18,564 bases of DNA, taken from a virus. Lineage: Duplodnaviria > Heunggongvirae > Uroviricota > Caudoviricetes. Where the stretch lies: the IMG/VR virus record IMGVR_UViG_2875713109_000004; one strand, written 5' to 3'. A program made the position numbers and the translations under genes. Below, piece by piece: positions 1 to 6,986 of this stretch (position 1 is the first letter of the stretch; every line of letters starts with the position of its first letter). Under the pieces are notes generated by a model. It was not told the origin of the DNA. It made no database searches and saw only the letters and a list, made by a program, of their open reading frames with translations.

Positions 1-1254
1 TTGCTTACCGATACCAAACTGAAAAATCTGAAGCCGCAGGAGAAACTGTATAAGGTTTCCGACCGTGACGGGCTGTATGTCGCCGTGCTCACGTCAGGAT
101 CTGTCTCGTTCCGCTACGACTACCGCATTAACGGCCGCCGGGAAACGCTGGTGATCGGTCAGTACGGTCGTGACGGTATCAGCCTGGCGGAAGCGCGCGA
201 GGAACTTATTGCCGCCAAAAAGTTGCTGAAGTCAGGCCAGTCGCCTGCTGCGGCAAAACGTGACGGTATCAGGCAGATTTCCAGCGCAGAAACATTCGCG
301 GTATATACCGACGCCTACATGAAATATGTCACCCTGGCCGACAGCACCCGATCCATGAAGCAGGCGGTTATTGAGCGTGATATCCTCCCGGTGCTCGGAA
401 ACAAGATGATGACTGAGATAACCACCAGGGTGGTGCGCGACCTGTGCGATCGTATCGTCGAGCGTGGCGGCCGGGCGACGGCGATTCAGGTCAGGGAGAT
501 AATCAGCAGTGTGTACCGGTATGCCAACGACCGCGGGCACGGCCTGTTCAATCCGGCTGCCGACATTAAGCCATCATCCATCGCTATGTTTAAGCCGCGC
601 GAGCGCACACTGTCGCCAGAGGAGATCGGCATTTTCTTCCGCGCGCTGGACGACATCGGAGCGATGGGCACAATGAAGATGGCTCTCAAGCTGGTACTGC
701 TGACGCTGGTGCGAAAAAGCGAATTCACTTACGCGACCTGGGCAGAGATCGATTTCAAGAAATGGACATGGACGATCCCCGCTGACAGGATGAAGGCCGG
801 GCGTGCGCATGTGATTTACCTGCCGAAGCAGGCGCAGGATCTGCTGGTGGGGTTGCAGATGTGTGCTGGCGGCAGTGAATACCTGGTGCCCGGGCGCTAC
901 AACTTCCGTAAGCCGTTATCGAACGCGGCGCTGAACTCGCTGGTAAACCGTACCGTGGAGGCCATAAACAGAGACGGCGAGAAGATACAGGACTTCACGG
1001 TGCATGACCTGCGCCGCACTGCCAGCACGCTGCTGCACGAAGCGGATTATCCTTCAGACTGGATCGAGAAGGCGCAGGCGCATGAGCAGAAGGGCGTGCG
1101 GGCGGTGTACAACAAAGCGGAGTATTCTCGGCAGCGCGCCTATATGTTGCAGCAGTGGGCAGATATGGTTGATGCCTGGATTAAAGGGGAGCACACCGAT
1201 CTGGTGCCGTTCTCCCCGTCGAAGTTTGAGAGGTGGACGGAAGGTAAGGATTAA
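1..1254 (+). CDS. int: Tyrosine recombinase / phage integrase (P4-like family); 5' end at or just beyond the window start
   Basis: ORF track 417 aa; N-terminal LTDTKLKNLKPQEK...GLYVAV resembles P4-type integrase N-terminus; C-terminal catalytic region has HDLRRT...H...Y pattern consistent with R-H-R-Y tyrosine recombinase residues. Frame opens at position 1 with TTG so true start may lie upstream of the window. Confidence 0.88.
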   Translation: MLTDTKLKNLKPQEKLYKVSDRDGLYVAVLTSGSVSFRYDYRINGRRETLVIGQYGRDGISLAEAREELIAAKKLLKSGQSPAAAKRDGIRQISSAETFAVYTDAYMKYVTLADSTRSMKQAVIERDILPVLGNKMMTEITTRVVRDLCDRIVERGGRATAIQVREIISSVYRYANDRGHGLFNPAADIKPSSIAMFKPRERTLSPEEIGIFFRALDDIGAMGTMKMALKLVLLTLVRKSEFTYATWAEIDFKKWTWTIPADRMKAGRAHVIYLPKQAQDLLVGLQMCAGGSEYLVPGRYNFRKPLSNAALNSLVNRTVEAINRDGEKIQDFTVHDLRRTASTLLHEADYPSDWIEKAQAHEQKGVRAVYNKAEYSRQRAYMLQQWADMVDAWIKGEHTDLVPFSPSKFERWTEGKD

Positions 1255-1258
1255 GCAG

Positions 1259-1609
1259 CTATTCAAGCTTAACACCAGGGATGTCGCTTGCAGCTATAGC
1301 GTCGTAAATTGCCTCCGCTGTCTTGCTGGCATCCCTTACCAATAAGCAAGCTGCATCGATGGCGCTTATAGCTGCATCACGCTTCTTATCTGCTTCTGAG
1401 CGGATATGGCGGAATCGATGAGCTTGGGAGGTATTTATGCAGTCAAGTCCACGAAATCTCGGGTCTTCTCCAAGCCATGTAAATGCGATTCCATCCATAG
1501 TTATGCATTCTACTCGAACCTTCTTAATTCCATATCCATTCGTTTCGTACTCACACTCACAACCAACCTGAGGCAATCCCTCGCCATCCCATTCTGTAAT
1601 ATTTTTCAT
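1259..1609 (-). CDS. Hypothetical protein (116 aa), last gene of leftward methyltransferase operon
   Basis: Internal ATG (MKNITEWDGEGL...) of track ORF 1259..1741; ATG overlaps stop of upstream methyltransferase gene (ATGA, 1606-1609); GGGAG Shine-Dalgarno about 9 nt upstream. No recognisable family. Confidence 0.45.
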   Translation of the reverse strand: MKNITEWDGEGLPQVGCECEYETNGYGIKKVRVECITMDGIAFTWLGEDPRFRGLDCINTSQAHRFRHIRSEADKKRDAAISAIDAACLLVRDASKTAEAIYDAIAASDIPGVKLE

Positions 1610-2253
1610 GCCGCACGCTCCCGGCCCTGGTTGTCTGTTGGTGACAACGGAGCATTTGCGAATGCCCGCGTCATCCCGGCGATATCCAGCGCGTAGCCAG
1701 GTTGCAACTGCACCGCTGGACCTTTGCACTGGTTGCCCCATACGTCGAAACCATGCGACGACTGGCGGGCGAACAACTCGATGCGCGGCACATCTCCCAG
1801 CAACTGCACCAGTTTTTCCCTGATCACGTCAGGCTTTCGCGAGTTCTCCAGGCGTGGCGCCGTGACGTGCTGGCAGATAGAGGCGTCCATGCGCGCCGGG
1901 AGTTTCCCGCGCACCGCGAAAAGGCAGTCTTCGCTGTTCGCCCTGGTCATGTGTCCCATGCCGATCTCGCTGTTGCCTTTGTGCTTGTTCGTCTTATGCC
2001 AGGTGAATCCCTTCATTGTCATCAGCTTGAATCCCCACGCTTCGACAACCTTCAACGCTTCAACCGGCTGCGTCGGAACCCACCACATCGCGAGCAGGCA
2101 ATCTTCGGCGGCCAGGTCCCACACCGGCAGGCGGCAGATATCCAGCACGTTCATGACCGGGTATTTGAACCCGGCGCCGCGGTTGCCGTCTGCTGCTTTG
2201 TCGCGGTATACCCAGGGCGGGTCAGCGTAGATAAGAGTGTATTTTCCGGTCAT
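1606..2253 (-). CDS. DNA methyltransferase, beta-class amino-MTase (MT-A70-like, DPPW motif near N-terminus); likely N6-adenine
   Basis: Track ORF 215 aa; motif LIYADPPWVY near N-terminus is the hallmark motif IV of MT-A70/beta-class N6A/N4C methyltransferases; AAGGTGG SD 6 nt upstream; start overlaps upstream stop (ATGA). Confidence 0.78.
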   Translation of the reverse strand: MTGKYTLIYADPPWVYRDKAADGNRGAGFKYPVMNVLDICRLPVWDLAAEDCLLAMWWVPTQPVEALKVVEAWGFKLMTMKGFTWHKTNKHKGNSEIGMGHMTRANSEDCLFAVRGKLPARMDASICQHVTAPRLENSRKPDVIREKLVQLLGDVPRIELFARQSSHGFDVWGNQCKGPAVQLQPGYALDIAGMTRAFANAPLSPTDNQGRERAA

Positions 2254-2408
2254 GCTGCCACCTTCTTGCTGTTCATCAGCTCAGCCAGGCGCTGAGCCTT
2301 CAATAGGTTTCTGATAACCTGGCCGCCTGGTGCCAGCCACCCGCGGCGCAGTGTTGAATAAAACAGCGTGATGCTGCCGACGCGGATATTGTCGTGAGGG
2401 CTAGTCAT
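2250..2408 (-). CDS. Small hypothetical protein (52 aa)
   Basis: Internal ATG (MTSPHDNIRV...) of track ORF 2250..2582 placed so that it starts 5 nt after the stop of the upstream PerC-like gene and its stop overlaps the methyltransferase start; weak SD. The longer track ORF would overlap the upstream gene extensively. Confidence 0.3.
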   Translation of the reverse strand: MTSPHDNIRVGSITLFYSTLRRGWLAPGGQVIRNLLKAQRLAELMNSKKVAA

Positions 2409-2700
2409 AAACCACCCCGCGACATCCGATCCCGCTGTAATCCAGGTGCGGGGTGCGGTTACCTTTGGTGATGCACTGCTGGCGGCGCACCGCGATTCGG
2501 GCGCGCTCCACTTCACCGACGGCAGCATCCAGACACTGTAGCCATAGTCTGGCTGCGATTCGGTAATGCCCGCGGCGCTCACGCTCGATGGCCCGGCTTT
2601 CGATCTCCATCGCTTCCGGAGTTACTGCCACAACTTTTTCAGTTCCGCGCTGCGATGCTTTGTTCATGTGATATTTTTCAAGGCGGGTTAATTTTCTCAT
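2401..2700 (-). CDS. PerC/ANR-family-like small transcriptional regulator
   Basis: Internal ATG (MRKLTRLEKYHMNKAS...) of track ORF 2401..2784; motif ERERRGHYRIAARLWLQCL resembles the G-x-WRRAA-x-RWL signature of PerC/ANR small regulators (recalled from memory, not searched). Alternative start at 2667 (MNKAS). Confidence 0.45.
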   Translation of the reverse strand: MRKLTRLEKYHMNKASQRGTEKVVAVTPEAMEIESRAIERERRGHYRIAARLWLQCLDAAVGEVERARIAVRRQQCITKGNRTPHLDYSGIGCRGVVYD

Positions 2701-2809
2701 TTGATCTACCCATCTCAACTGATTACCGCCGCCAGCCACATCAGGTAGGCGACCACGGCCAGATACAGGTAAACATCTGACCATCTTCCGATATGCTTTT
2801 TCAGCGCCG

Positions 2810-3058
2810 TCATGCTGCTGCGCTCACCGGGCGATACACTCGGCGGTCAACTGGCGGCTTTTTTCCGGTGAACGTCGCCGGGCTTGCCGCCTTACGTTTA
2901 TCCAGCCAGGCTTCAACTTCGCTCTGGTCCCACGCGCAGCGGCGATCGGTGATCCAGAAACGAGACGGAAATTTGCCAGCCTGTTCCAGGCGGTCAATCG
3001 TGCTCCATGACAGTGGCACCACCGCCAGGAGTTCCTTCTTACCAAACGCACCTTTCAT
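2810..3058 (-). CDS. AlpA-family phage regulatory / excisionase-like DNA-binding protein
   Basis: Track ORF 82 aa; segment FPSRFWITDRRCAWDQSEVEAWL resembles AlpA/Xis-type winged-helix proteins; GAGAGG SD upstream of ATG at 3058. Confidence 0.7.
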   Translation of the reverse strand: MKGAFGKKELLAVVPLSWSTIDRLEQAGKFPSRFWITDRRCAWDQSEVEAWLDKRKAASPATFTGKKPPVDRRVYRPVSAAA

Positions 3059-3107
3059 AAATACCTCTCTTGGTTGCAGGTGTGGCGCCGCGGCGCCACA
3101 GTGGTGA

Positions 3108-3989
3108 TTACATAGGGACGTTGTTCAGCTCATCACGGCGGATGGTGTAAACGTCTGTTGCTTTAGCCAGGAGCTCATCATCGTTAGCGAGCTTGCTGGC
3201 AACGTATTTGTATGCCTTATCAAGATCCTTCAGCGTGTTGTAGTTCATCGCTGCGTCAGTGAAAGCGCACAGAATTTCTTCAGGATCGCGGTCATCACTG
3301 CTCTTCGGCTTCTCTTCCTGGTGCTGCTCAGGCTTGGAGTTGATCAGCTTGTTCATGCCTGAGGCGGTGGCGGGCGTCGGCGTGATATCGCGCTCAACGC
3401 GTGGTGCTGTCTCCTGCAATTCGTCAGGGGTGTACACGCCAAGCAGGACGTCTGGAGCATTCAGTCGCGCCCAACGCTTAACGCACAGGTATGCCAGTTG
3501 CTGGCGTGGATCCTGCTCCCACAGAGGGGAGTTACGCACACCGGCCTGCGCCATGCTGATCGTCAGCTCGCGCGGTTCTGATTCTCCTTTGAGGGTCGCC
3601 CACACGGTTACTGTCAGGTTCGGCGATTTGTCGGATTTCCCGTTTACTTTCGACCAGTCACCGTCCCAGCGATAATTCAGGCGGGTGGCCAGCAGATTGG
3701 AGGAGGACACAACCGCGTTAACCAGTTGCGCTTCATATCCCAGCGTGCCGTTTACCACGTGAGTTTTCTGAGCCACGGCGAACGGGTTCATTCCCCACTG
3801 TGCAGCCTGCATAGTCACTGCCAGGCAGTCAGCAGGCTTACCTGCCAGGTGTGCCGGAACAGTGGCCTTACTGTCAGCCATCAGGGTTGCGAAACGCACC
3901 AGGCGGTCCATACCCTCAGGGCTGAATATTGCCGCAGCGGTGCCAACTGTAGCGCCAGGCTGCGATGTGATTGCGATGTCGTTGCTCAT
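3108..3989 (-). CDS. recT: RecT-family single-strand annealing recombinase
   Basis: Track ORF 3108..4016; start placed at internal ATG (MSNDIAITSQ...) whose ATG overlaps the stop of the upstream exonuclease gene (ATGA at 3986-3989). Sequence resembles prophage RecT proteins as recalled; paired with a nuclease gene as expected for a RecET-type module. Confidence 0.8.
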   Translation of the reverse strand: MSNDIAITSQPGATVGTAAAIFSPEGMDRLVRFATLMADSKATVPAHLAGKPADCLAVTMQAAQWGMNPFAVAQKTHVVNGTLGYEAQLVNAVVSSSNLLATRLNYRWDGDWSKVNGKSDKSPNLTVTVWATLKGESEPRELTISMAQAGVRNSPLWEQDPRQQLAYLCVKRWARLNAPDVLLGVYTPDELQETAPRVERDITPTPATASGMNKLINSKPEQHQEEKPKSSDDRDPEEILCAFTDAAMNYNTLKDLDKAYKYVASKLANDDELLAKATDVYTIRRDELNNVPM

Positions 3990-4807
3990 ACGTACATATC
4001 CTGTTTGCGTGCCCACTCAGGGCGTTTAATAATTTCAAATCCACCCCATTCGCCTGACTCCCGGCACTGGTGGTAGGTATTCAGATCCCGGCGGAACAGT
4101 GCATGCCCGGCATCTACGTCTGTCGCATCCAGCTCGAACACGCGCACCGGGTAGCGGCCACAGTCGATGGTTTCGCTCACTGCCAGGAAGAAGAATCCGT
4201 GCGGCTCACCGGTGGTCTGCTGCGCGCCTTCGCGGTACATGGCGTCCTGAACGTGGTACCGGAATTCTTCGACGTGGCGGGCGAAGCGCTCCATGTCTGC
4301 AACTTTCTTCACGTCCAGCAGCACCGGGTGATACTTCAGCCGCTTGTCCGGGCGGATGCGGCACAGCTCGCCAGTCTCCGGATCCGTCCAGTAATGCGAT
4401 GCTTCGCAGAATCCTTCCGCTTCAAGCAGCCAGCGCGATGCCGGGTGAGCCATTGCGCTATCACGCATCAGCTCCAGTTTCCGCCACTGCTCTTCATCAA
4501 GTACCGAAATACCCATATCCGCCACATCACGAAGAAATGCCTCTTCGTCAGCTTTACCTTGTTTCGTCCGACGATCGAATTTCGGTGAAACAATGAAGCG
4601 TTTGTCGAACTCTCCAGGCTCCAGAAGCAGACAGTGCAATGCGGTTCCCATATCCAGTGCAGACTTTTTCTCTTCGTCTTCTGGTGCTGCCTGAACCCAT
4701 TTAAGAAGCGCCGGATTCTTGGCTACCATGTCCAGTTGCGACTTACTCACGCCGTCACCGGCGTGGTAGTCTTCGTTGCTGATGTCGAAATAAATTCCCG
4801 GTTTCAT
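3986..4807 (-). CDS. PD-(D/E)XK-family exonuclease (RecE-like partner of RecT)
   Basis: Track ORF 273 aa; region ...RIRPDKRLKYHPVLLDVKKV... fits a D...(D/E)xK nuclease core; position immediately upstream of recT with overlapping stop/start; AGAGGGA SD upstream of ATG at 4807. Confidence 0.7.
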   Translation of the reverse strand: MKPGIYFDISNEDYHAGDGVSKSQLDMVAKNPALLKWVQAAPEDEEKKSALDMGTALHCLLLEPGEFDKRFIVSPKFDRRTKQGKADEEAFLRDVADMGISVLDEEQWRKLELMRDSAMAHPASRWLLEAEGFCEASHYWTDPETGELCRIRPDKRLKYHPVLLDVKKVADMERFARHVEEFRYHVQDAMYREGAQQTTGEPHGFFFLAVSETIDCGRYPVRVFELDATDVDAGHALFRRDLNTYHQCRESGEWGGFEIIKRPEWARKQDMYV

Positions 4808-5103
4808 GCCGCGTCCCTCTGTCCATCAAGCTGATCCGCCAGATCCCAGCGGGCGATAATTGCCATTGCCTCGCGCCGGTAGGCATCCATCAGTTCTTCG
4901 AACTCAGGGCTGTCTTTAGCAGCCTCCAGTACTTCCTGACGAACGCCTTTGCCTGTTACAACGTCGAAAGTTGAGGACAGTTGATGAAGTCGGATGCTCT
5001 CAATCAGTTCAACTTGTCGGTCATATAGCTGTTCTGACAGGTGGTAGTCCTTGTCGAATGCCAGCATGATTTTTTGAAGATTTTTCTGCTGATTAACGTT
5101 CAT
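4804..5103 (-). CDS. Hypothetical early protein (99 aa)
   Basis: Internal ATG (MNVNQQKNLQ...) of track ORF 4804..5118 with strong GGAGGG SD upstream; stop overlaps start of exonuclease gene (ATGA). Confidence 0.5.
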   Translation of the reverse strand: MNVNQQKNLQKIMLAFDKDYHLSEQLYDRQVELIESIRLHQLSSTFDVVTGKGVRQEVLEAAKDSPEFEELMDAYRREAMAIIARWDLADQLDGQRDAA

Positions 5104-5105
5104 TA

Positions 5106-5258
5106 TCAGCCCTCCCATATCTCGTTATCGTTGGCCACATCGCGAGCTTCTTTGCTGACGAAAGCCCACTTGATGCCTTCCTGTAAGGTGCGGCACTTGG
5201 TGCTCATCAGCCCGCACGCCGTAACGCAGTACCAACCGTTGATGATTTTCCACTGCAT
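5106..5258 (-). CDS. Small Cys-containing hypothetical protein (50 aa), first gene of leftward early operon
   Basis: Hand translation of minus strand: MQWKIINGWYCVTACGLMSTKCRTLQEGIKWAFVSKEARDVANDNEIWEG; below the ORF-track size cutoff; stop lies 2 nt before next gene start; TGAGGT-like SD upstream. Coordinates hand-derived, could be off by a few nt. Confidence 0.3.
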   Translation of the reverse strand: MQWKIINGWYCVTACGLMSTKCRTLQEGIKWAFVSKEARDVANDNEIWEG

Positions 5259-5275
5259 AATTCGTTACCTCAGTG

Positions 5276-5352
5276 TTACCGTTGGGGTAATAATTATCCT
5301 TATGTGGTTTGAAGTCAATAGGTATGATTATAAAAAATTACCCGTAAGGTAA
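5276..5352 (-). promoter_or_regulatory. Leftward early promoter region with two perfect TTACC-N5-GGTAA operator palindromes (5276-5290 and 5338-5352) and a TATAAT -10 (minus strand, 5327-5332)
   Basis: Read directly: gTTACCgttggGGTAAt and aTTACCcgtaaGGTAAt; minus-strand TATAAT at 5327-5332 with the 5338-5352 palindrome sitting where a -35 would be. Confidence 0.55.
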
Positions 5353-5361
5353 TTCTAAGGG

Positions 5362-5390
5362 CAATAAAAAAGCCGCTCAATGGCGGCTTA
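5362..5390 (-). terminator. Rho-independent terminator downstream of repressor gene
   Basis: Minus-strand hairpin AAGCCGC-cattga-GCGGCTT followed by TTTTTTATT (plus-strand aaaaaagccgctcaatggcggctt). Confidence 0.6.
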
Positions 5391-5409
5391 ATATCTGAAA
5401 TGTATGGAG

Positions 5410-6000
5410 TTATTCTTGAGTTTTACCGTTCTGAACAATCACGAAATCGACGTAGCTCTCGATCTTGCTTTTCTCGCTCTCAGGTAACAATGCGTAGCGG
5501 GCCCGGTCGTAATGGATGGTCGCCGGGTCGCGAGGATGGATGAGCAACTCATAGCCGCGGCGGCCGAACGCGCTGGCGATCGCCTCCAGGGTGGAGATGG
5601 AAACGCTAACCTCATTGTTCAGCATGCGGTTGATTGTCGCCTGGGCAACGCCGGACGCCTTCGACAGCTTACCCTGGGAGGACAGGTCGCGGTTGTTCTG
5701 CATCCACGCTTCGAGGTTATGCGCCGCCAGCTGGCCGATATCGGAAGGGGTGATCTCCTCCTGGGGGATGGCAACAGCAGATAATGAGTGGTCGACGTCC
5801 AGCCAGTTCGACGGTTTGTTCGCTGCCTTCTCAATCTTGCGCGCCACCGTGTCGCCGACAACCTTCTGCCCGCGGGCCCAGCGGTTCACCAGGTTTGCCT
5901 GAGTTCCCAGTTTTTCCGCCAGACGAGTCTGCACCCCGTTAAAGTCACGGTCGATGATATCGTTAATATTCTGCCTGCGGATATCCTGAATACTTTTCAT
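5410..6000 (-). CDS. Prophage repressor, tandem helix-turn-helix architecture (186-CI-like N-terminal HTH), no S24 peptidase domain
   Basis: Track ORF 196 aa; two HTH-like segments (QTRLAEKLGTQANLVNRWARGQ and LSKASGVAQATINRMLNNEVS); no Ala-Gly cleavage site plus Ser/Lys peptidase domain seen; divergent from a Cro-like gene across an operator-rich intergenic region. Confidence 0.75.
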   Translation of the reverse strand: MKSIQDIRRQNINDIIDRDFNGVQTRLAEKLGTQANLVNRWARGQKVVGDTVARKIEKAANKPSNWLDVDHSLSAVAIPQEEITPSDIGQLAAHNLEAWMQNNRDLSSQGKLSKASGVAQATINRMLNNEVSVSISTLEAIASAFGRRGYELLIHPRDPATIHYDRARYALLPESEKSKIESYVDFVIVQNGKTQE

Positions 6001-6055
6001 GCTCTGGTGAATCGCCTCATATATGAATTAGTTAGTGGTTCAATTAAAAGCGAAT

Positions 6056-6118
6056 TTACCTCACAGGTAAATGCACCCGACAGGTAACAAACCTTGATTT
6101 TTATTACCTTCTGGGTGA
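6056..6118. promoter_or_regulatory. Divergent immunity-region operator/promoter array: perfect TTACC-N5-GGTAA (6056-6070), degenerate copies at 6073-6087 and 6104-6118, candidate rightward promoter TTGATT (6094-6099)
   Basis: Read directly: tTTACCtcacaGGTAAa; gcaccCGACAGGTAA; TTACCttctgGGTGA. Three-site arrangement between repressor and cro-like gene resembles lambdoid OR organisation. Confidence 0.6.
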
Positions 6119-6154
6119 ATATTTGTTATCTGAAATTAATATCAGGCAATAGCT

Positions 6155-6385
6155 ATGAGCGAGAACGAAAAATTCGACTTCAAAAAACACTGGTTGCAAC
6201 TCACTCCTGATGAGCGAAATGCCTTTGCTGACGAGGCCGGAACGACCAGCCACTACATCCAGACTCATCTGACAGGCCGCCGGAAAATGCCCGGTAAGAC
6301 ATTGATGAATGGGCTATTTAAGGCATGTAAACAACGCGGATGGGTCAGAACTAAGCCTGAACTGGCTATCTTCTTCTACGAATAA
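6155..6385 (+). CDS. Cro/CII-like small HTH regulator
   Basis: Track ORF 76 aa; segment AFADEAGTTSHYIQTHLTGRRKMP resembles small phage HTH regulators (Cro/CII/YdaS-like); divergent from repressor. Confidence 0.6.
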   Translation: MSENEKFDFKKHWLQLTPDERNAFADEAGTTSHYIQTHLTGRRKMPGKTLMNGLFKACKQRGWVRTKPELAIFFYE

Positions 6386-6405
6386 AAACTCCTTCTAAAC
6401 CCCAT

Positions 6406-6430
6406 CAGGCCGCCTTCTGGCGGTCTTTTC
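6406..6430 (+). terminator. Rho-independent terminator immediately downstream of cro-like gene
   Basis: Hairpin GGCCGCC-ttct-GGCGGTC (one G-U pair) followed by TTTTC; 20 nt after cro-like stop. Confidence 0.5.
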
Positions 6431-6534
6431 ATATCTATTCAGTCCTCTCAGGTAATAATAATCCGAATATGGTTGATCTTTTTTCGGCCATCGCACAAAA
6501 TCATCGTAACCATAACCAGAATCTGAGGTGAAGT

Positions 6535-6744
6535 GTGGAGATTATCACTCGTATGTCAGCCGCGAAGGCTGGACTGAAGCGTTATTACACCGGAAAGCAG
6601 TGTAAGCGAGGCCATGACAGCGAGCGCTGGGTTTACAACGGCCATTGTGTGGAATGCACCATGGAGTCAAACCGCAGGCGCCAGGCAGAGATTAAACGGA
6701 TTATGGATGAAGCTGCGAAAGGCAACGTGCCGGAGGTGATCTGA
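6535..6744 (+). CDS. Small putative zinc-binding protein (69 aa)
   Basis: Track ORF; motif CKRGHDSERWVYNGHCVEC (C-x3-H ... C-x2-C); GAGGTG SD before GTG at 6535 (alternative ATG at 6553). 3' end overlaps the convergent minus-strand ORF by about 44 nt, so one of the two may be shorter or spurious. Confidence 0.4.
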   Translation: MEIITRMSAAKAGLKRYYTGKQCKRGHDSERWVYNGHCVECTMESNRRRQAEIKRIMDEAAKGNVPEVI

Positions 6745-6928
6745 TGGCGCGCAGCTCAGCCATCGGGCCATCAACATTAAAGCCATCATCACCCAGCTGG
6801 CGCAGCAATGTCATCAGGTGCGAATCTTCAACAAGGGAGCGAACGCCTCCCGGCGTGTGTATACGTTCGGCAAAGCCTTTTTCCAGCGGGTGATGATACT
6901 GACGTTGCATCTGATATTCTCCATGCAT
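6701..6928 (-). CDS. Small ORF directly downstream of a LexA box; candidate SOS-controlled antirepressor (function inferred from context only)
   Basis: Track ORF 75 aa (MHGEYQMQRQYHH...); second ATG at 6910 has GGAG SD about 8 nt upstream and is the more likely start; LexA box sits 4 nt upstream of the first ATG. No recognisable domain. Confidence 0.35.
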   Translation of the reverse strand: MHGEYQMQRQYHHPLEKGFAERIHTPGGVRSLVEDSHLMTLLRQLGDDGFNVDGPMAELRAIRSPPARCLSQLHP

Positions 6929-6929
6929 T

Positions 6930-6949
6930 CACTGTATTTATGTACAGTA
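6930..6949. promoter_or_regulatory. LexA (SOS) box
   Basis: cACTGTATTTATGTACAGTA: perfect CTGT-N8-ACAG with AT-rich spacer, 17 of 20 matches to TACTGTATATATATACAGTA by hand alignment. Confidence 0.7.
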
Positions 6950-6986
6950 GCAAAAGTCCAAGTGACTATCCAGAACGAATTGCCAT

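What the first reader, a model, noticed from the sequence alone, without database searches (positions are those of the whole stretch)
6701..6949. Perfect LexA box next to a small orphan ORF: candidate SOS-controlled antirepressor
cACTGTATTTATGTACAGTA (6930-6949) is a near-consensus SOS box lying 4 nt upstream of the first ATG of a 69-75 aa minus-strand ORF with no recognisable domain, about 900 bp from a non-cleavable repressor. This is the expected genetic logic for a LexA-gated antirepressor switch. The ORF product itself would be an uncharacterised antirepressor family if confirmed.
Basis: partly seen in the sequence, partly recalled or inferred. Interest (0 to 1): 0.7.

Follow-up and report, generated by a model that had tools for sequence, protein, structure and literature searches.

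The report
Truncated known SOS-gated phage antirepressor gene
The LexA box and small gene are real, but they belong to an antirepressor switch already worked out in Salmonella phage SPC32H, and this E. coli copy lost its last third in a 25-kb deletion that crippled the prophage, so it is an ordinary, decaying remnant.

Summary
CACTGTATTTATGTACAGTA (6930-6949) is the only CTGT-N8-ACAG site in the window. It sits at the same position upstream of the same small gene in eight related phages.

The ORF is a homologue of Ant of Salmonella phage SPC32H (PDB 5D50, E=1.6e-26). The 196-aa regulator at 5410-6000 is a homologue of its non-cleavable repressor Rep (E=1.2e-48).

This copy is damaged. A near-identical intact prophage in E. 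coli USMARC-50748 shows that the window carries a 25,472-bp deletion with its junction at 6752/6753. The deletion removes the replication, packaging, head and tail genes and the last 33 of Ant's 86 codons. What remains is 53 native residues plus 16 unrelated ones, starting at ATG 6910 (69 aa).

The "900 bp from the repressor" spacing is a by-product of this deletion. The lost segment is as conserved as the retained one.

The LexA box and promoter region are identical to the intact prophage, so SOS-induced transcription probably persists. The product is probably inactive, and the prophage cannot make virions in any case.

Verdict: already known, low interest.

The parts
6930..6949 (.). LexA (SOS) box CACTGTATTTATGTACAGTA; on the ant strand it reads TACTGTACATAAATACAGTG
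   Evidence: Unique CTGT-N8-ACAG in the window; 17/20 to consensus, 0 of 200 shuffles. Positionally conserved in 8 relatives. The orthologous SPC32H box carries the G->T change found in SPC32N. 100% identical to the intact parent prophage.
6944..6972 (-). Proposed ant promoter (inference): -35 TGGATA (6972-6967), 17-nt spacer ending in an extended -10 TG (6952-6951), -10 TACTGT (6949-6944), which is the upstream arm of the LexA box
   Evidence: CTGGATAG and TGnTACTGT are conserved in all eight aligned upstream regions while the spacer varies. The consensus scanner did not call it, because the -10 hexamer matches only 3 of 6. No transcript data.
6919..6922 (-). Shine-Dalgarno GGAG, 8 nt before ATG 6910
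   Evidence: GCATGGAG is conserved in all the Escherichia, Salmonella and Enterobacter relatives.
6752..6910 (-). Native part of ant: codons 1-53 (MQRQYHHPLEKGFAERIHTPGGVRSLVEDSHLMTLLRQLGDDGFNVDGPMAEL)
   Evidence: 100% DNA identity to the full-length ant of E. coli USMARC-50748 from 6752 rightwards. 79% identical to SPC32H Ant / 5D50_E.
6701..6751 (-). Foreign tail of the truncated ant ORF: 16 codons (RAIRSPPARCLSQLHP) plus stop, read antisense to the 3' end of orf69
   Evidence: No similarity to any Ant homologue. This DNA belongs to the early-right operon of the parent.
6752..6753 (.). Deletion junction: 2-nt microhomology (CA) joining the 10th nt of the DnaT-like primosomal gene to codon 53 of ant. 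25,472 bp are missing relative to NZ_CP104117.1 (1339659-1365130).
   Evidence: The left parent is identical through 6753 and the right parent from 6752. Same result against BUCT554 and Tyrion. The junction is seen 100% identical in CP035331.1 (L017), E. coli PSS-07 (H59) and an ENA metagenome scaffold.
6535..6744 (+). orf69, a conserved small early-right gene (CxxGH...CxxC motif). Its stop overlaps the ATG of the deleted DnaT-like gene, of which only 6744-6753 remain.
   Evidence: Homologous to Tyrion gp42 and BUCT554 QQM14163, and followed by DnaT-like and lambda-P-like genes in intact prophages.
6155..6385 (+). cro-position gene (76 aa) with a terminator-like hairpin at 6407-6426
   Evidence: Same position as SPC32H_042, Tyrion gp41 and the 76-aa gene in L015. 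Hairpin. No Pfam hit.
5410..6000 (-). Rep: 196-aa repressor with HTH domains and no peptidase domain; the target of Ant in the intact system
   Evidence: 5D50_A E=1.2e-48 over residues 1-192. Pfam HTH_3/HTH_26 only. The exact protein is found in intact prophages.
6987..7001 (.). Rep-operator-like palindrome TTACCTGAAAGGTAA in the ant-tailspike intergenic region; a twin, TTACCTCACAGGTAA, lies at 6056-6070 between rep and cro
   Evidence: only two perfect copies in the window, both in regulatory intergenic regions. The same motif lies in the equivalent regions of SPC32H (20013-20027) and BUCT554 (27548-27562). The epsilon15 record annotates a 'repressor' binding site at the corresponding place.
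7106..9457 (+). Tailspike gene, divergent from ant; predicted promoter TTGACA-16-GATGAT at 7041-7068, more than 90 nt from the LexA box
   Evidence: RefSeq: phage tailspike polysaccharide lyase family protein.

Best explanation
This is the ant locus of an epsilon15/phiV10-type (Uetakevirus) prophage integrated at the 3' end of guaA in E. coli.

In intact relatives the mechanism is as follows. Host LexA sits on a box that overlaps the ant promoter. DNA damage leads to LexA self-cleavage, and the 86-aa Ant is made. An Ant tetramer binds the non-cleavable tetrameric repressor Rep and takes it off its operators, starting lytic growth. This mechanism comes from the literature on SPC32H, not from anything tested here.

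In this window a single 25,472-bp deletion with 2-nt microhomology (junction 6752/6753) fused the start of the primosomal gene to codon 53 of ant. It removed the replication genes, all packaging, head and tail genes except the tailspike, the hairpin that follows ant in the parent, and Ant's last 33 residues.

Shown: the LexA box, the ribosome-binding site and the first 53 codons are 100% identical to the intact parent. Rep, cro, the early-left operon, the tailspike, the O-antigen genes and the lysis cassette are retained.

Inferred: the promoter is still SOS-inducible. The 69-aa product (53 native + 16 foreign residues) is probably unable to assemble or to inactivate Rep. Even if it could, no phage could be produced. 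The locus is therefore a vestigial SOS switch in a defective prophage.
For: Identity of the system: Ant homology to SPC32H ant and PDB 5D50_E. Rep homology to 5D50_A. Same gene order ant(-)/tailspike(+) in BUCT554, SPC32H, epsilon15, phiV10 and Klebsiella phages. LexA box at the same offset in 8 relatives. The SPC32H/SPC32N difference falls in the CTGT arm of the orthologous box. Literature statements on LexA-dependent Ant synthesis and on the Ant tetramer binding two Rep dimers.

Deletion: window 1-6753 is 99.91% identical and 6752-8103 is 100% identical to two places 25.5 kb apart in E. coli NZ_CP104117.1. The same break is seen against BUCT554 and Tyrion. Intact prophages with the identical Rep carry DnaT-like, lambda-P-like, terminase and portal genes after orf69. 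The window has none of these.

The junction is real and inherited. It is 100% identical in CP035331.1, in PSS-07 and in a metagenome scaffold. The exact 69-aa product is indexed in 52 blocks, and all 24 contigs read had the same neighbourhood.

Loss of function: 87 of the 120 listed clusters are 85-86 aa. Residues 54-80 are as conserved as 1-53 (mean top-residue frequency 0.87 vs 0.86), with invariant L56, Y59, V60, H73, L74, D75 and C77. The crystal chains have 67-77 ordered residues. The predicted helices 47-62 and 67-85 are cut and lost, respectively.
Against: No experiment was possible on this allele. The retained 53 residues include most invariant positions of the N-terminal half, and I could not read the structure papers to learn which Ant residues contact Rep or form the tetramer. 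Residual or altered activity is therefore not excluded. The ORF is still open and is present in dozens of assemblies, though the deletion looks too recent for this to show selection. The promoter assignment rests on conservation only, and the consensus scanner did not call it. The AF2 monomer model agrees poorly in 3D with the crystal chains (TM 0.43), so only its secondary structure was used.
Confidence: 0.8

Rival explanations
1. The truncated Ant' still works as an antirepressor. The N-terminal 53 residues would be enough to bind Rep, so SOS still derepresses the remnant (RecET-type recombination genes, methylase, int, perhaps lysis genes). It might also act in trans on a co-resident intact Uetakevirus prophage with a compatible Rep.
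For: The promoter region, LexA box, SD and codons 1-53 are identical to the intact parent. The N-terminal half holds many invariant residues. The ORF remains open and the allele is found in at least 24 contigs. Trans-acting antirepressor crosstalk is documented for other Salmonella prophages (citing Lemire 2011).
Against: One third of a small, uniformly conserved protein is missing, including seven invariant positions. Nearly all family members keep 85-86 aa. The C-terminal part is ordered in the Rep-Ant crystal, and Ant acts as a tetramer. The 16-residue foreign tail is arbitrary antisense sequence.
Confidence: 0.13
2. The deletion rewired the circuit. The LexA-gated promoter now points towards rep on the same strand. 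The hairpin that follows ant in the parent is gone, so SOS-induced transcripts run antisense through orf69 and cro and then into rep in the sense direction. SOS would then reinforce repression of the remnant instead of relieving it.
For: ant' and rep are both on the minus strand, with 700 nt between the two ORFs (6001-6700). The hairpin that follows ant in the parent (L023 1075-1094) lies inside the deleted segment. No minus-strand terminator-like site was found between 6700 and 6000; only a plus-strand hairpin at 6407-6426.
Against: This is inferred from geometry alone. The GC-rich cro hairpin could terminate in both directions, Rho could stop the untranslated read-through, and there are no transcript data. 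No sign of selection for this arrangement: 1 of 5426 complete E. coli genomes.
Confidence: 0.05
3. The palindrome is a chance match or serves only the rightward tailspike promoter, and the small ORF is not a gene.
For: CTGT-N8-ACAG alone occurs at least once in 39 of 200 shuffles. The scanner found no canonical minus-strand promoter at the box.
Against: 17/20 to the full consensus was never reached in shuffles. The box, the SD and the ORF are conserved together across phages of four host genera. The box lies 19 nt from the ant start but more than 90 nt upstream of the predicted tailspike -35. The ORF product is a crystallised protein.
Confidence: 0.02

Closest known systems
Ant-Rep-LexA lytic switch of Salmonella phage SPC32H (Kim & Ryu 2013, J Virol 87:11775; Kim et al. 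2016, PNAS 113:E2480; PDB 5D50, 5D4Z)
   Same: Homologous Ant (79% identity over the retained part) and homologous full-length Rep. Same divergent ant/tailspike arrangement. LexA box at the same offset from the ant start with the same conserved flanks. Same Rep-operator-like palindrome in the intergenic region.
   Different: Ant here has 53 native residues instead of 86, plus a 16-residue unrelated tail. rep is 0.9 kb away instead of about 24 kb along the prophage. Replication and virion genes are absent. The host is E. coli. Rep matches SPC32H Rep over its full length but is too diverged for me to say whether the two phages share an immunity type.
Intact guaA-integrated Uetakevirus prophage of E. 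coli USDA-ARS-USMARC-50748 (NZ_CP104117.1), and Enterobacter phage BUCT554
   Same: 99.9-100% DNA identity to USMARC-50748 on both sides of the junction, with the identical Rep protein and the identical tailspike protein accession. 85-92% identity to BUCT554.
   Different: Those genomes carry the full 86-aa ant and the 25.5 kb of replication, packaging, head and tail genes that are missing here.
Other LexA-controlled antirepressors: Tum of coliphage 186, and GfoA/GfhA of the Gifsy prophages (Shearwin 1998; Lemire 2011)
   Same: Same logic: the SOS signal is read through LexA at the antirepressor promoter, and a non-cleavable repressor is inactivated by protein-protein contact.
   Different: The review read calls these antirepressors homologous to Tum, but nothing here shows sequence similarity: Ant has no Pfam family, I did not compare it directly with Tum or the Gifsy proteins, and from my recollection of the Kim & Ryu 2013 abstract it was described as structurally distinct from Sipho- and Myoviridae antirepressors.
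P22 Ant and Bro-N/KilAC-type antirepressors
   Same: They also inactivate a phage repressor. Some Uetakeviruses (phiV10 p23, Tyrion gp20, ZX5 ORF4) carry such a gene next to the small ant.
   Different: They are much larger, unrelated proteins, controlled by Mnt/Arc in P22 rather than by LexA. No such gene is present in this window.

Membership tests
SPC32H-type small antirepressor Ant (PDB 5D50 chains E-H) | Significant sequence similarity to SPC32H Ant | tested here: met
   phmmer E=1.6e-26 to 5D50_E, query 7-62 to chain 1-56. tblastn 79% identity to the annotated ant of SPC32H/SPC32N.
SPC32H-type small antirepressor Ant (PDB 5D50 chains E-H) | Full-length 85-86-aa protein with the conserved C-terminal segment A-L-x-N-Y-V-T-S-S-Q...H-L-D-Y-C | tested here: not met
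   Native sequence stops at residue 53. Residues 54-86 are replaced by RAIRSPPARCLSQLHP. 87 of 120 listed clusters are 85-86 aa.
SPC32H-type small antirepressor Ant (PDB 5D50 chains E-H) | LexA box overlapping the promoter region immediately upstream of ant | tested here: met
   The box at 6930-6949 is 19 nt from ATG 6910 and aligns with the SPC32H box that carries the SPC32N point change. The overlap with the promoter is inferred.
SPC32H-type small antirepressor Ant (PDB 5D50 chains E-H) | Cognate Rep: HTH repressor without a RecA-cleavable S24 domain, homologous to SPC32H Rep | tested here: met
   5D50_A E=1.2e-48 over the full length. Pfam HTH families only.
SPC32H-type small antirepressor Ant (PDB 5D50 chains E-H) | Genomic position between the tail/ejection-protein genes and the divergent tailspike gene | tested here: inconclusive
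   The tailspike side is conserved. The other side has been replaced by early-right genes because of the deletion.
SPC32H-type small antirepressor Ant (PDB 5D50 chains E-H) | The protein tetramerises, binds Rep and induces the prophage | not testable with these tools
   Needs expression, pull-down or reporter assays with the 69-aa product.
E. coli SOS regulon operator (LexA box) | CTGT-N8-ACAG palindrome close to TACTG(TA)5CAGTA | tested here: met
   17/20 match with both arms intact.
E. coli SOS regulon operator (LexA box) | LexA binding and DNA-damage-inducible transcription | not testable with these tools
   Supported only by orthology to the SPC32H site and by the literature.
Inducible (complete) Uetakevirus prophage | Replication genes, terminase, portal, capsid and tail genes are present | tested here: not met
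   None in the window. 25,472 bp are missing relative to NZ_CP104117.1, about 25.7 kb relative to BUCT554.
Bro-N / KilAC / P22-Ant type antirepressors | Pfam Bro-N, ANT or KilA-type domain | tested here: not met
   No Pfam family at E<=0.01 for the ORF.

The most novel reading that the evidence does not exclude
The deletion did more than kill ant: it created a new SOS-controlled transcription unit. The intact LexA-gated promoter now faces rep on the same strand. The hairpin that follows ant in the parent is lost, so DNA damage would drive antisense transcription across orf69 and cro and sense transcription into rep. An induction switch would thus become an SOS-reinforced lock on a remnant that still carries a lysis cassette, a tailspike and O-antigen-modifying genes. 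Alternatively, the 53-residue Ant stub retains Rep binding and acts as a trans-acting or dominant-negative modulator of related co-resident prophages.
Probability: 0.07. Interest if true: 0.4.

Novelty: already known. Interest (0 to 1): 0.12.

Why it matters
It matters little for new biology. The LexA-Ant-Rep switch of epsilon15-like phages has been described genetically and structurally, and this copy is a truncated allele.

It is useful as a caution.

It also documents, at nucleotide resolution, one step of prophage decay at the E. coli guaA site. The remnant keeps its immunity, serotype-conversion, tailspike and lysis genes but has lost the ability to replicate, to package and probably to respond to SOS.

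RefSeq names both the 69-aa product and its full-length 86-aa counterpart only 'hypothetical protein'. They could be annotated as a truncated and a full-length Ant-family antirepressor.

Tried and rejected
- Pfam on the ORF gave nothing, so membership had to come from PDB and phage-record homology.
- The primary papers (Kim & Ryu 2013; Kim et al. 2016; Kropinski et al. 2007) are not held. Mechanistic statements therefore rest on secondary citations, on database annotations and on my memory of the abstracts. I could not establish which Ant residues contact Rep.
- An exact-match scan of species-representative genomes for the junction found nothing. The junction was found instead through exact-protein look-ups and the E. 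coli collection.
- The consensus promoter scanner found no minus-strand promoter at the box. I propose a conserved TGGATA-17-TGnTACTGT promoter from the alignment only.
- My first operator pattern used the wrong spacing (N5) and gave only chance hits. It was corrected to TTACCT-N3-AGGTAA.
- The AF2 monomer model of full-length Ant (pLDDT 70) superposes poorly on the crystal chains (TM 0.43, rmsd ~15 A). This is presumably because Ant is extended in the tetramer. I rejected it for any tertiary-structure argument and used only the helix boundaries.
- Rfam: no RNA family anywhere in the window.
- The ZX5 'anti-repressor' paper turned out to concern a different, Bro-N-type gene. It was useful only for the attB sequence.
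- I considered and rejected an assembly artefact as the cause of the junction. It is seen identically in two finished E. coli chromosomes, a metagenome scaffold and at least 24 contigs.

Full report
**1. The observation**

The sequence CACTGTATTTATGTACAGTA is at 6930-6949.
- It is the only CTGT-N8-ACAG site in the window. The expectation is 0.21, and 39 of 200 shuffles had at least one.
- It is the only site within three mismatches of the 20-mer LexA consensus. None of 200 shuffles had one.
- A minus-strand ORF runs from 6928 to 6701 (75 aa from the first ATG) and has no Pfam domain.

Two details need correcting.
- **Start codon.** The ATG at 6928 is not conserved in relatives. The conserved start, 8 nt after a conserved GGAG, is ATG 6910 (69 aa). 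That is where GenBank places the start of SPC32H ant and where RefSeq places the start of this gene.
- **Distance to the repressor.** The repressor-like gene at 5410-6000 has HTH domains and no S24 peptidase domain. Its closeness to the box is secondary, as section 3 shows.

**2. What it is**

A tblastn search of the ORF against phage genomes hit 35 records at 80% coverage or more. All are epsilon15-like podoviruses (genus Uetakevirus) or related prophages of Salmonella, Escherichia, Enterobacter and Klebsiella. They include Salmonella phages SPC32H and SPC32N, where the gene is annotated 'ant: anti-repressor protein'.

Against the PDB:
- the ORF matches chain E of 5D50, 'Crystal structure of Rep-Ant complex from Salmonella-temperate phage' (E=1.6e-26);
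- the 196-aa regulator at 5410-6000 matches the repressor chain 5D50_A over its whole length (E=1.2e-48).

The arrangement of ant on one strand and the tailspike gene diverging from it is the same in BUCT554, SPC32H, epsilon15, phiV10, TL-2011b and three Klebsiella phages.

Seven of these relatives (all but the three Klebsiella phages, and counting Tyrion and the YDC107_2 record) have a CTGT-N8-ACAG box at the same offset from the ant start. The arms are invariant, the centre is variable and AT-rich, and the flanks CTGGATAG and TGnTACTGT are conserved. The three Klebsiella homologues have ATGT in one arm.

SPC32H and SPC32N differ in this region at only two positions. One is a G->T change in the CTGT arm of the orthologous box. 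This agrees with my recollection of the Kim & Ryu 2013 abstract: a single LexA-site mutation makes Ant constitutive in SPC32N.

Papers I could read say the following.
[quoted passage not shown] - The C-terminal domain of Rep is the Ant-binding domain.

The family, however, is already characterised genetically and structurally.

**3. The twist: this copy is truncated by a large deletion**

Homology to Ant stops two thirds of the way along the protein.

*Evidence from phage genomes*
- Window 6755-7110 matches the ant-tailspike region of Enterobacter phage BUCT554. Window 6400-6753 matches a different part of Enterobacter phage Tyrion: the early-right genes gp41, gp42 and the start of the primosomal gene gp43.
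- BLAST of the whole window against BUCT554 shows the window jumping from BUCT554 position 13240 to 27797 at window 6752-6756.

*Evidence from E. coli genomes*
- Exact-protein look-ups located the source. Window 1-16000 is 100% identical to E. coli CP035331.1.
- E. coli USDA-ARS-USMARC-50748 (NZ_CP104117.1) carries an intact sister prophage. Window 1-6753 is 99.91% identical to its int-to-orf69 segment. Window 6752-8103 is 100% identical to its ant-tailspike segment.
- The two segments lie 25,472 bp apart in that genome (1339659-1365130 is missing here).
- The junction has a 2-nt microhomology (CA, 6752-6753).

*What was lost and what remains*
- In intact prophages with the identical Rep, orf69 is followed by DnaT-like, lambda-P-like and RuvC-like genes, terminase, portal and the rest of the virion genes. 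The window has none of them.
- The parent Ant is 86 aa. The window keeps codons 1-53 (6752-6910) and then reads 16 unrelated codons, antisense to orf69, to a stop at 6701.

*The junction is not an assembly artefact*
- It is identical in E. coli PSS-07 (NZ_AP027673.1), where RefSeq calls the 69-aa product a hypothetical protein, and in an 811-bp metagenome scaffold.
- The exact 69-aa protein is indexed in 52 blocks of the assembly collection. All 24 contigs read had the same neighbourhood.

*Frequency.* The allele is rare. One of 5426 complete E. coli genomes has it, against 16 with at least one of the two halves and no junction; 14 of those carry both halves in separate places.

**4. Whole-element context**

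In window order:
- integrase (1-1254);
- an early-left operon on the minus strand (MT-A70 methylase, DUF1317, PerC, AlpA, RecT, a PD-(D/E)XK exonuclease);
- Rep, a cro-position gene and orf69;
- the junction and ant';
- the tailspike, a Wzy-like membrane protein and gtrC/B/A;
- two holins, an endolysin and a DUF2514 protein;
- the att core ATTGAGTGGGAATGAT at 15645-15660.

A second copy of the att core lies at the 3' end of guaA next to int. It equals the attB reported for the E. coli Uetakevirus ZX5.

Beyond attR lie a DUF5384 gene, a glycine-zipper gene and an IS3-family element.

**5. How it most likely works now**

*Shown.* The box, the SD, codons 1-53 and the whole intergenic region are unchanged from the intact parent.

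*Inferred: SOS-inducible transcription persists.* The conserved TGGATA (6972-6967), a 17-nt spacer ending in TG, and TACTGT (6949-6944) form an extended -10 promoter. Its -10 hexamer is the upstream arm of the box, so LexA would occlude RNA polymerase and SOS would release it. The consensus scanner did not call this promoter, so it rests on conservation alone.

*Inferred: the product is probably inactive.*
- It lacks 33 of 86 residues.
- Those residues are as conserved as the rest of the protein (mean top-residue frequency 0.87 for residues 54-80 against 0.86 for 1-53). They include invariant L56, Y59, V60, H73, L74, D75 and C77 across 87 full-length clusters.
- 87 of the 120 listed clusters keep 85-86 aa.
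- The crystal chains have 67-77 ordered residues.
- Predicted helix 47-62 is cut and helix 67-85 is lost.

Whatever the stub does, no virion or replicating phage genome can result.

I put about 0.8 on this overall reading. The identity and the deletion are close to certain. The loss of function is at about 0.7.

**6. Rivals**

- **The stub still binds Rep (0.13).** It would derepress the remnant or act in trans on related prophages.
- **The circuit is rewired (0.05).** The LexA-gated promoter now faces rep on the same strand, and the hairpin that follows ant in the parent is deleted. No minus-strand terminator-like site lies before rep. SOS could therefore drive antisense transcription across cro and sense transcription into rep.
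- **Chance palindrome, or a tailspike-only operator (0.02).** This is contradicted by the conservation of box, SD and ORF together, and by the distance of more than 90 nt to the predicted tailspike -35.

**7. Comparison and novelty**

The system works like, and is homologous to, the SPC32H LexA-Ant-Rep switch.

On membership, sequence similarity, the LexA box and the cognate Rep are met. The full-length C-terminal segment is not met. This is therefore a truncated allele of a known family, not a new one. The locus shares only its logic, not any demonstrated sequence similarity, with Tum of phage 186, the Gifsy antirepressors and P22 or Bro-N-type antirepressors.

Novelty: already known. Interest: low, about 0.12.

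Two things may be of minor use. The deletion is a cleanly documented prophage-decay event. And both the stub and its full-length parent gene are still named only 'hypothetical protein' in RefSeq.

Noticed in passing
window 6056-6070 and 6987-7001 (perfect); 5338-5352 (1 mismatch); 5276-5290, 6104-6118 and 13631-13645 (2 mismatches): The 15-bp palindrome TTACCT-N3-AGGTAA marks the rep-cro, early-left, ant-tailspike and gtrA-holin intergenic regions. The same motif clusters in the equivalent regions of SPC32H and BUCT554. It is probably the Rep operator, which implies that Rep also acts at the ant/tailspike and lysis/gtr control regions (the epsilon15 record annotates a 'repressor' site at the same place).
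   Followed up: partly
window 15645-15660; second copy at L017 16192-16207 (3' end of guaA): The 16-bp att core ATTGAGTGGGAATGAT marks attR, and phage homology ends at about 15660. The prophage sits at the 3' end of guaA, next to guaB and xseA. This is the same attB as published for E. coli phage ZX5.
   Followed up: yes
L018 8181-9466; L022 7060-9466: Other E. coli genomes with the identical Rep show different internal deletions of the same prophage. In L018, orf69 is followed directly by a 358-aa product with a terminase-small domain. In L022, the lambda-P-like gene is followed directly by a Bbp16-like virion gene. This suggests repeated independent decay of this prophage at guaA.
   Followed up: no
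proteins P0104, P0105, P0108, P0112, P0114, P0116, P0118, P0120; L003 2314-2535 (YDC107_2): Several other database entries are Ant homologues broken between residues ~45 and ~65 and continued by unrelated sequence, or cut short (51 aa in the YDC107_2 record). The ant gene is therefore a recurrent casualty of prophage degradation or of frameshifts.
   Followed up: no
L011, L012, L013 (Klebsiella phages), about 40 nt upstream of their ant start: Klebsiella homologues carry ATATGTATATATATACAGTA, with ATGT instead of CTGT in one arm of the box. This may be a weaker or host-adapted LexA site.
   Followed up: no
window 9606-13712: A Wzy-like 403-aa membrane protein (weak Wzy_C hit, below the Pfam cut-off) and a gtrA/gtrB/gtrC-like cluster lie between the tailspike and the lysis genes. 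This O-antigen-modifying cargo is retained by the defective prophage.
   Followed up: no
window 15754-18564: Outside attR lie a DUF5384 gene, a glycine-zipper (Rick_17kDa_Anti/TraT-like) gene and an IS3-family element (orfB with rve domains at 17174-18268, orfA at 18265 to the window end), all on the minus strand.
   Followed up: no
L005 2097-2801 (Tyrion gp20); L009 1189-1383 (phiV10 p23); L011 1188-1380: Several relatives carry a second, large Bro-N/KilAC-type 'anti-repressor' gene just downstream of the small ant. The deleted prophage here and its parent's ant-proximal region show no such gene.
   Followed up: no
window 6535-6744: orf69 encodes a small conserved protein with a C-x2-G-H...C-x2-C pattern and no Pfam family. 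It is conserved immediately upstream of the DnaT-like gene in all relatives examined. Its function is unknown.
   Followed up: no
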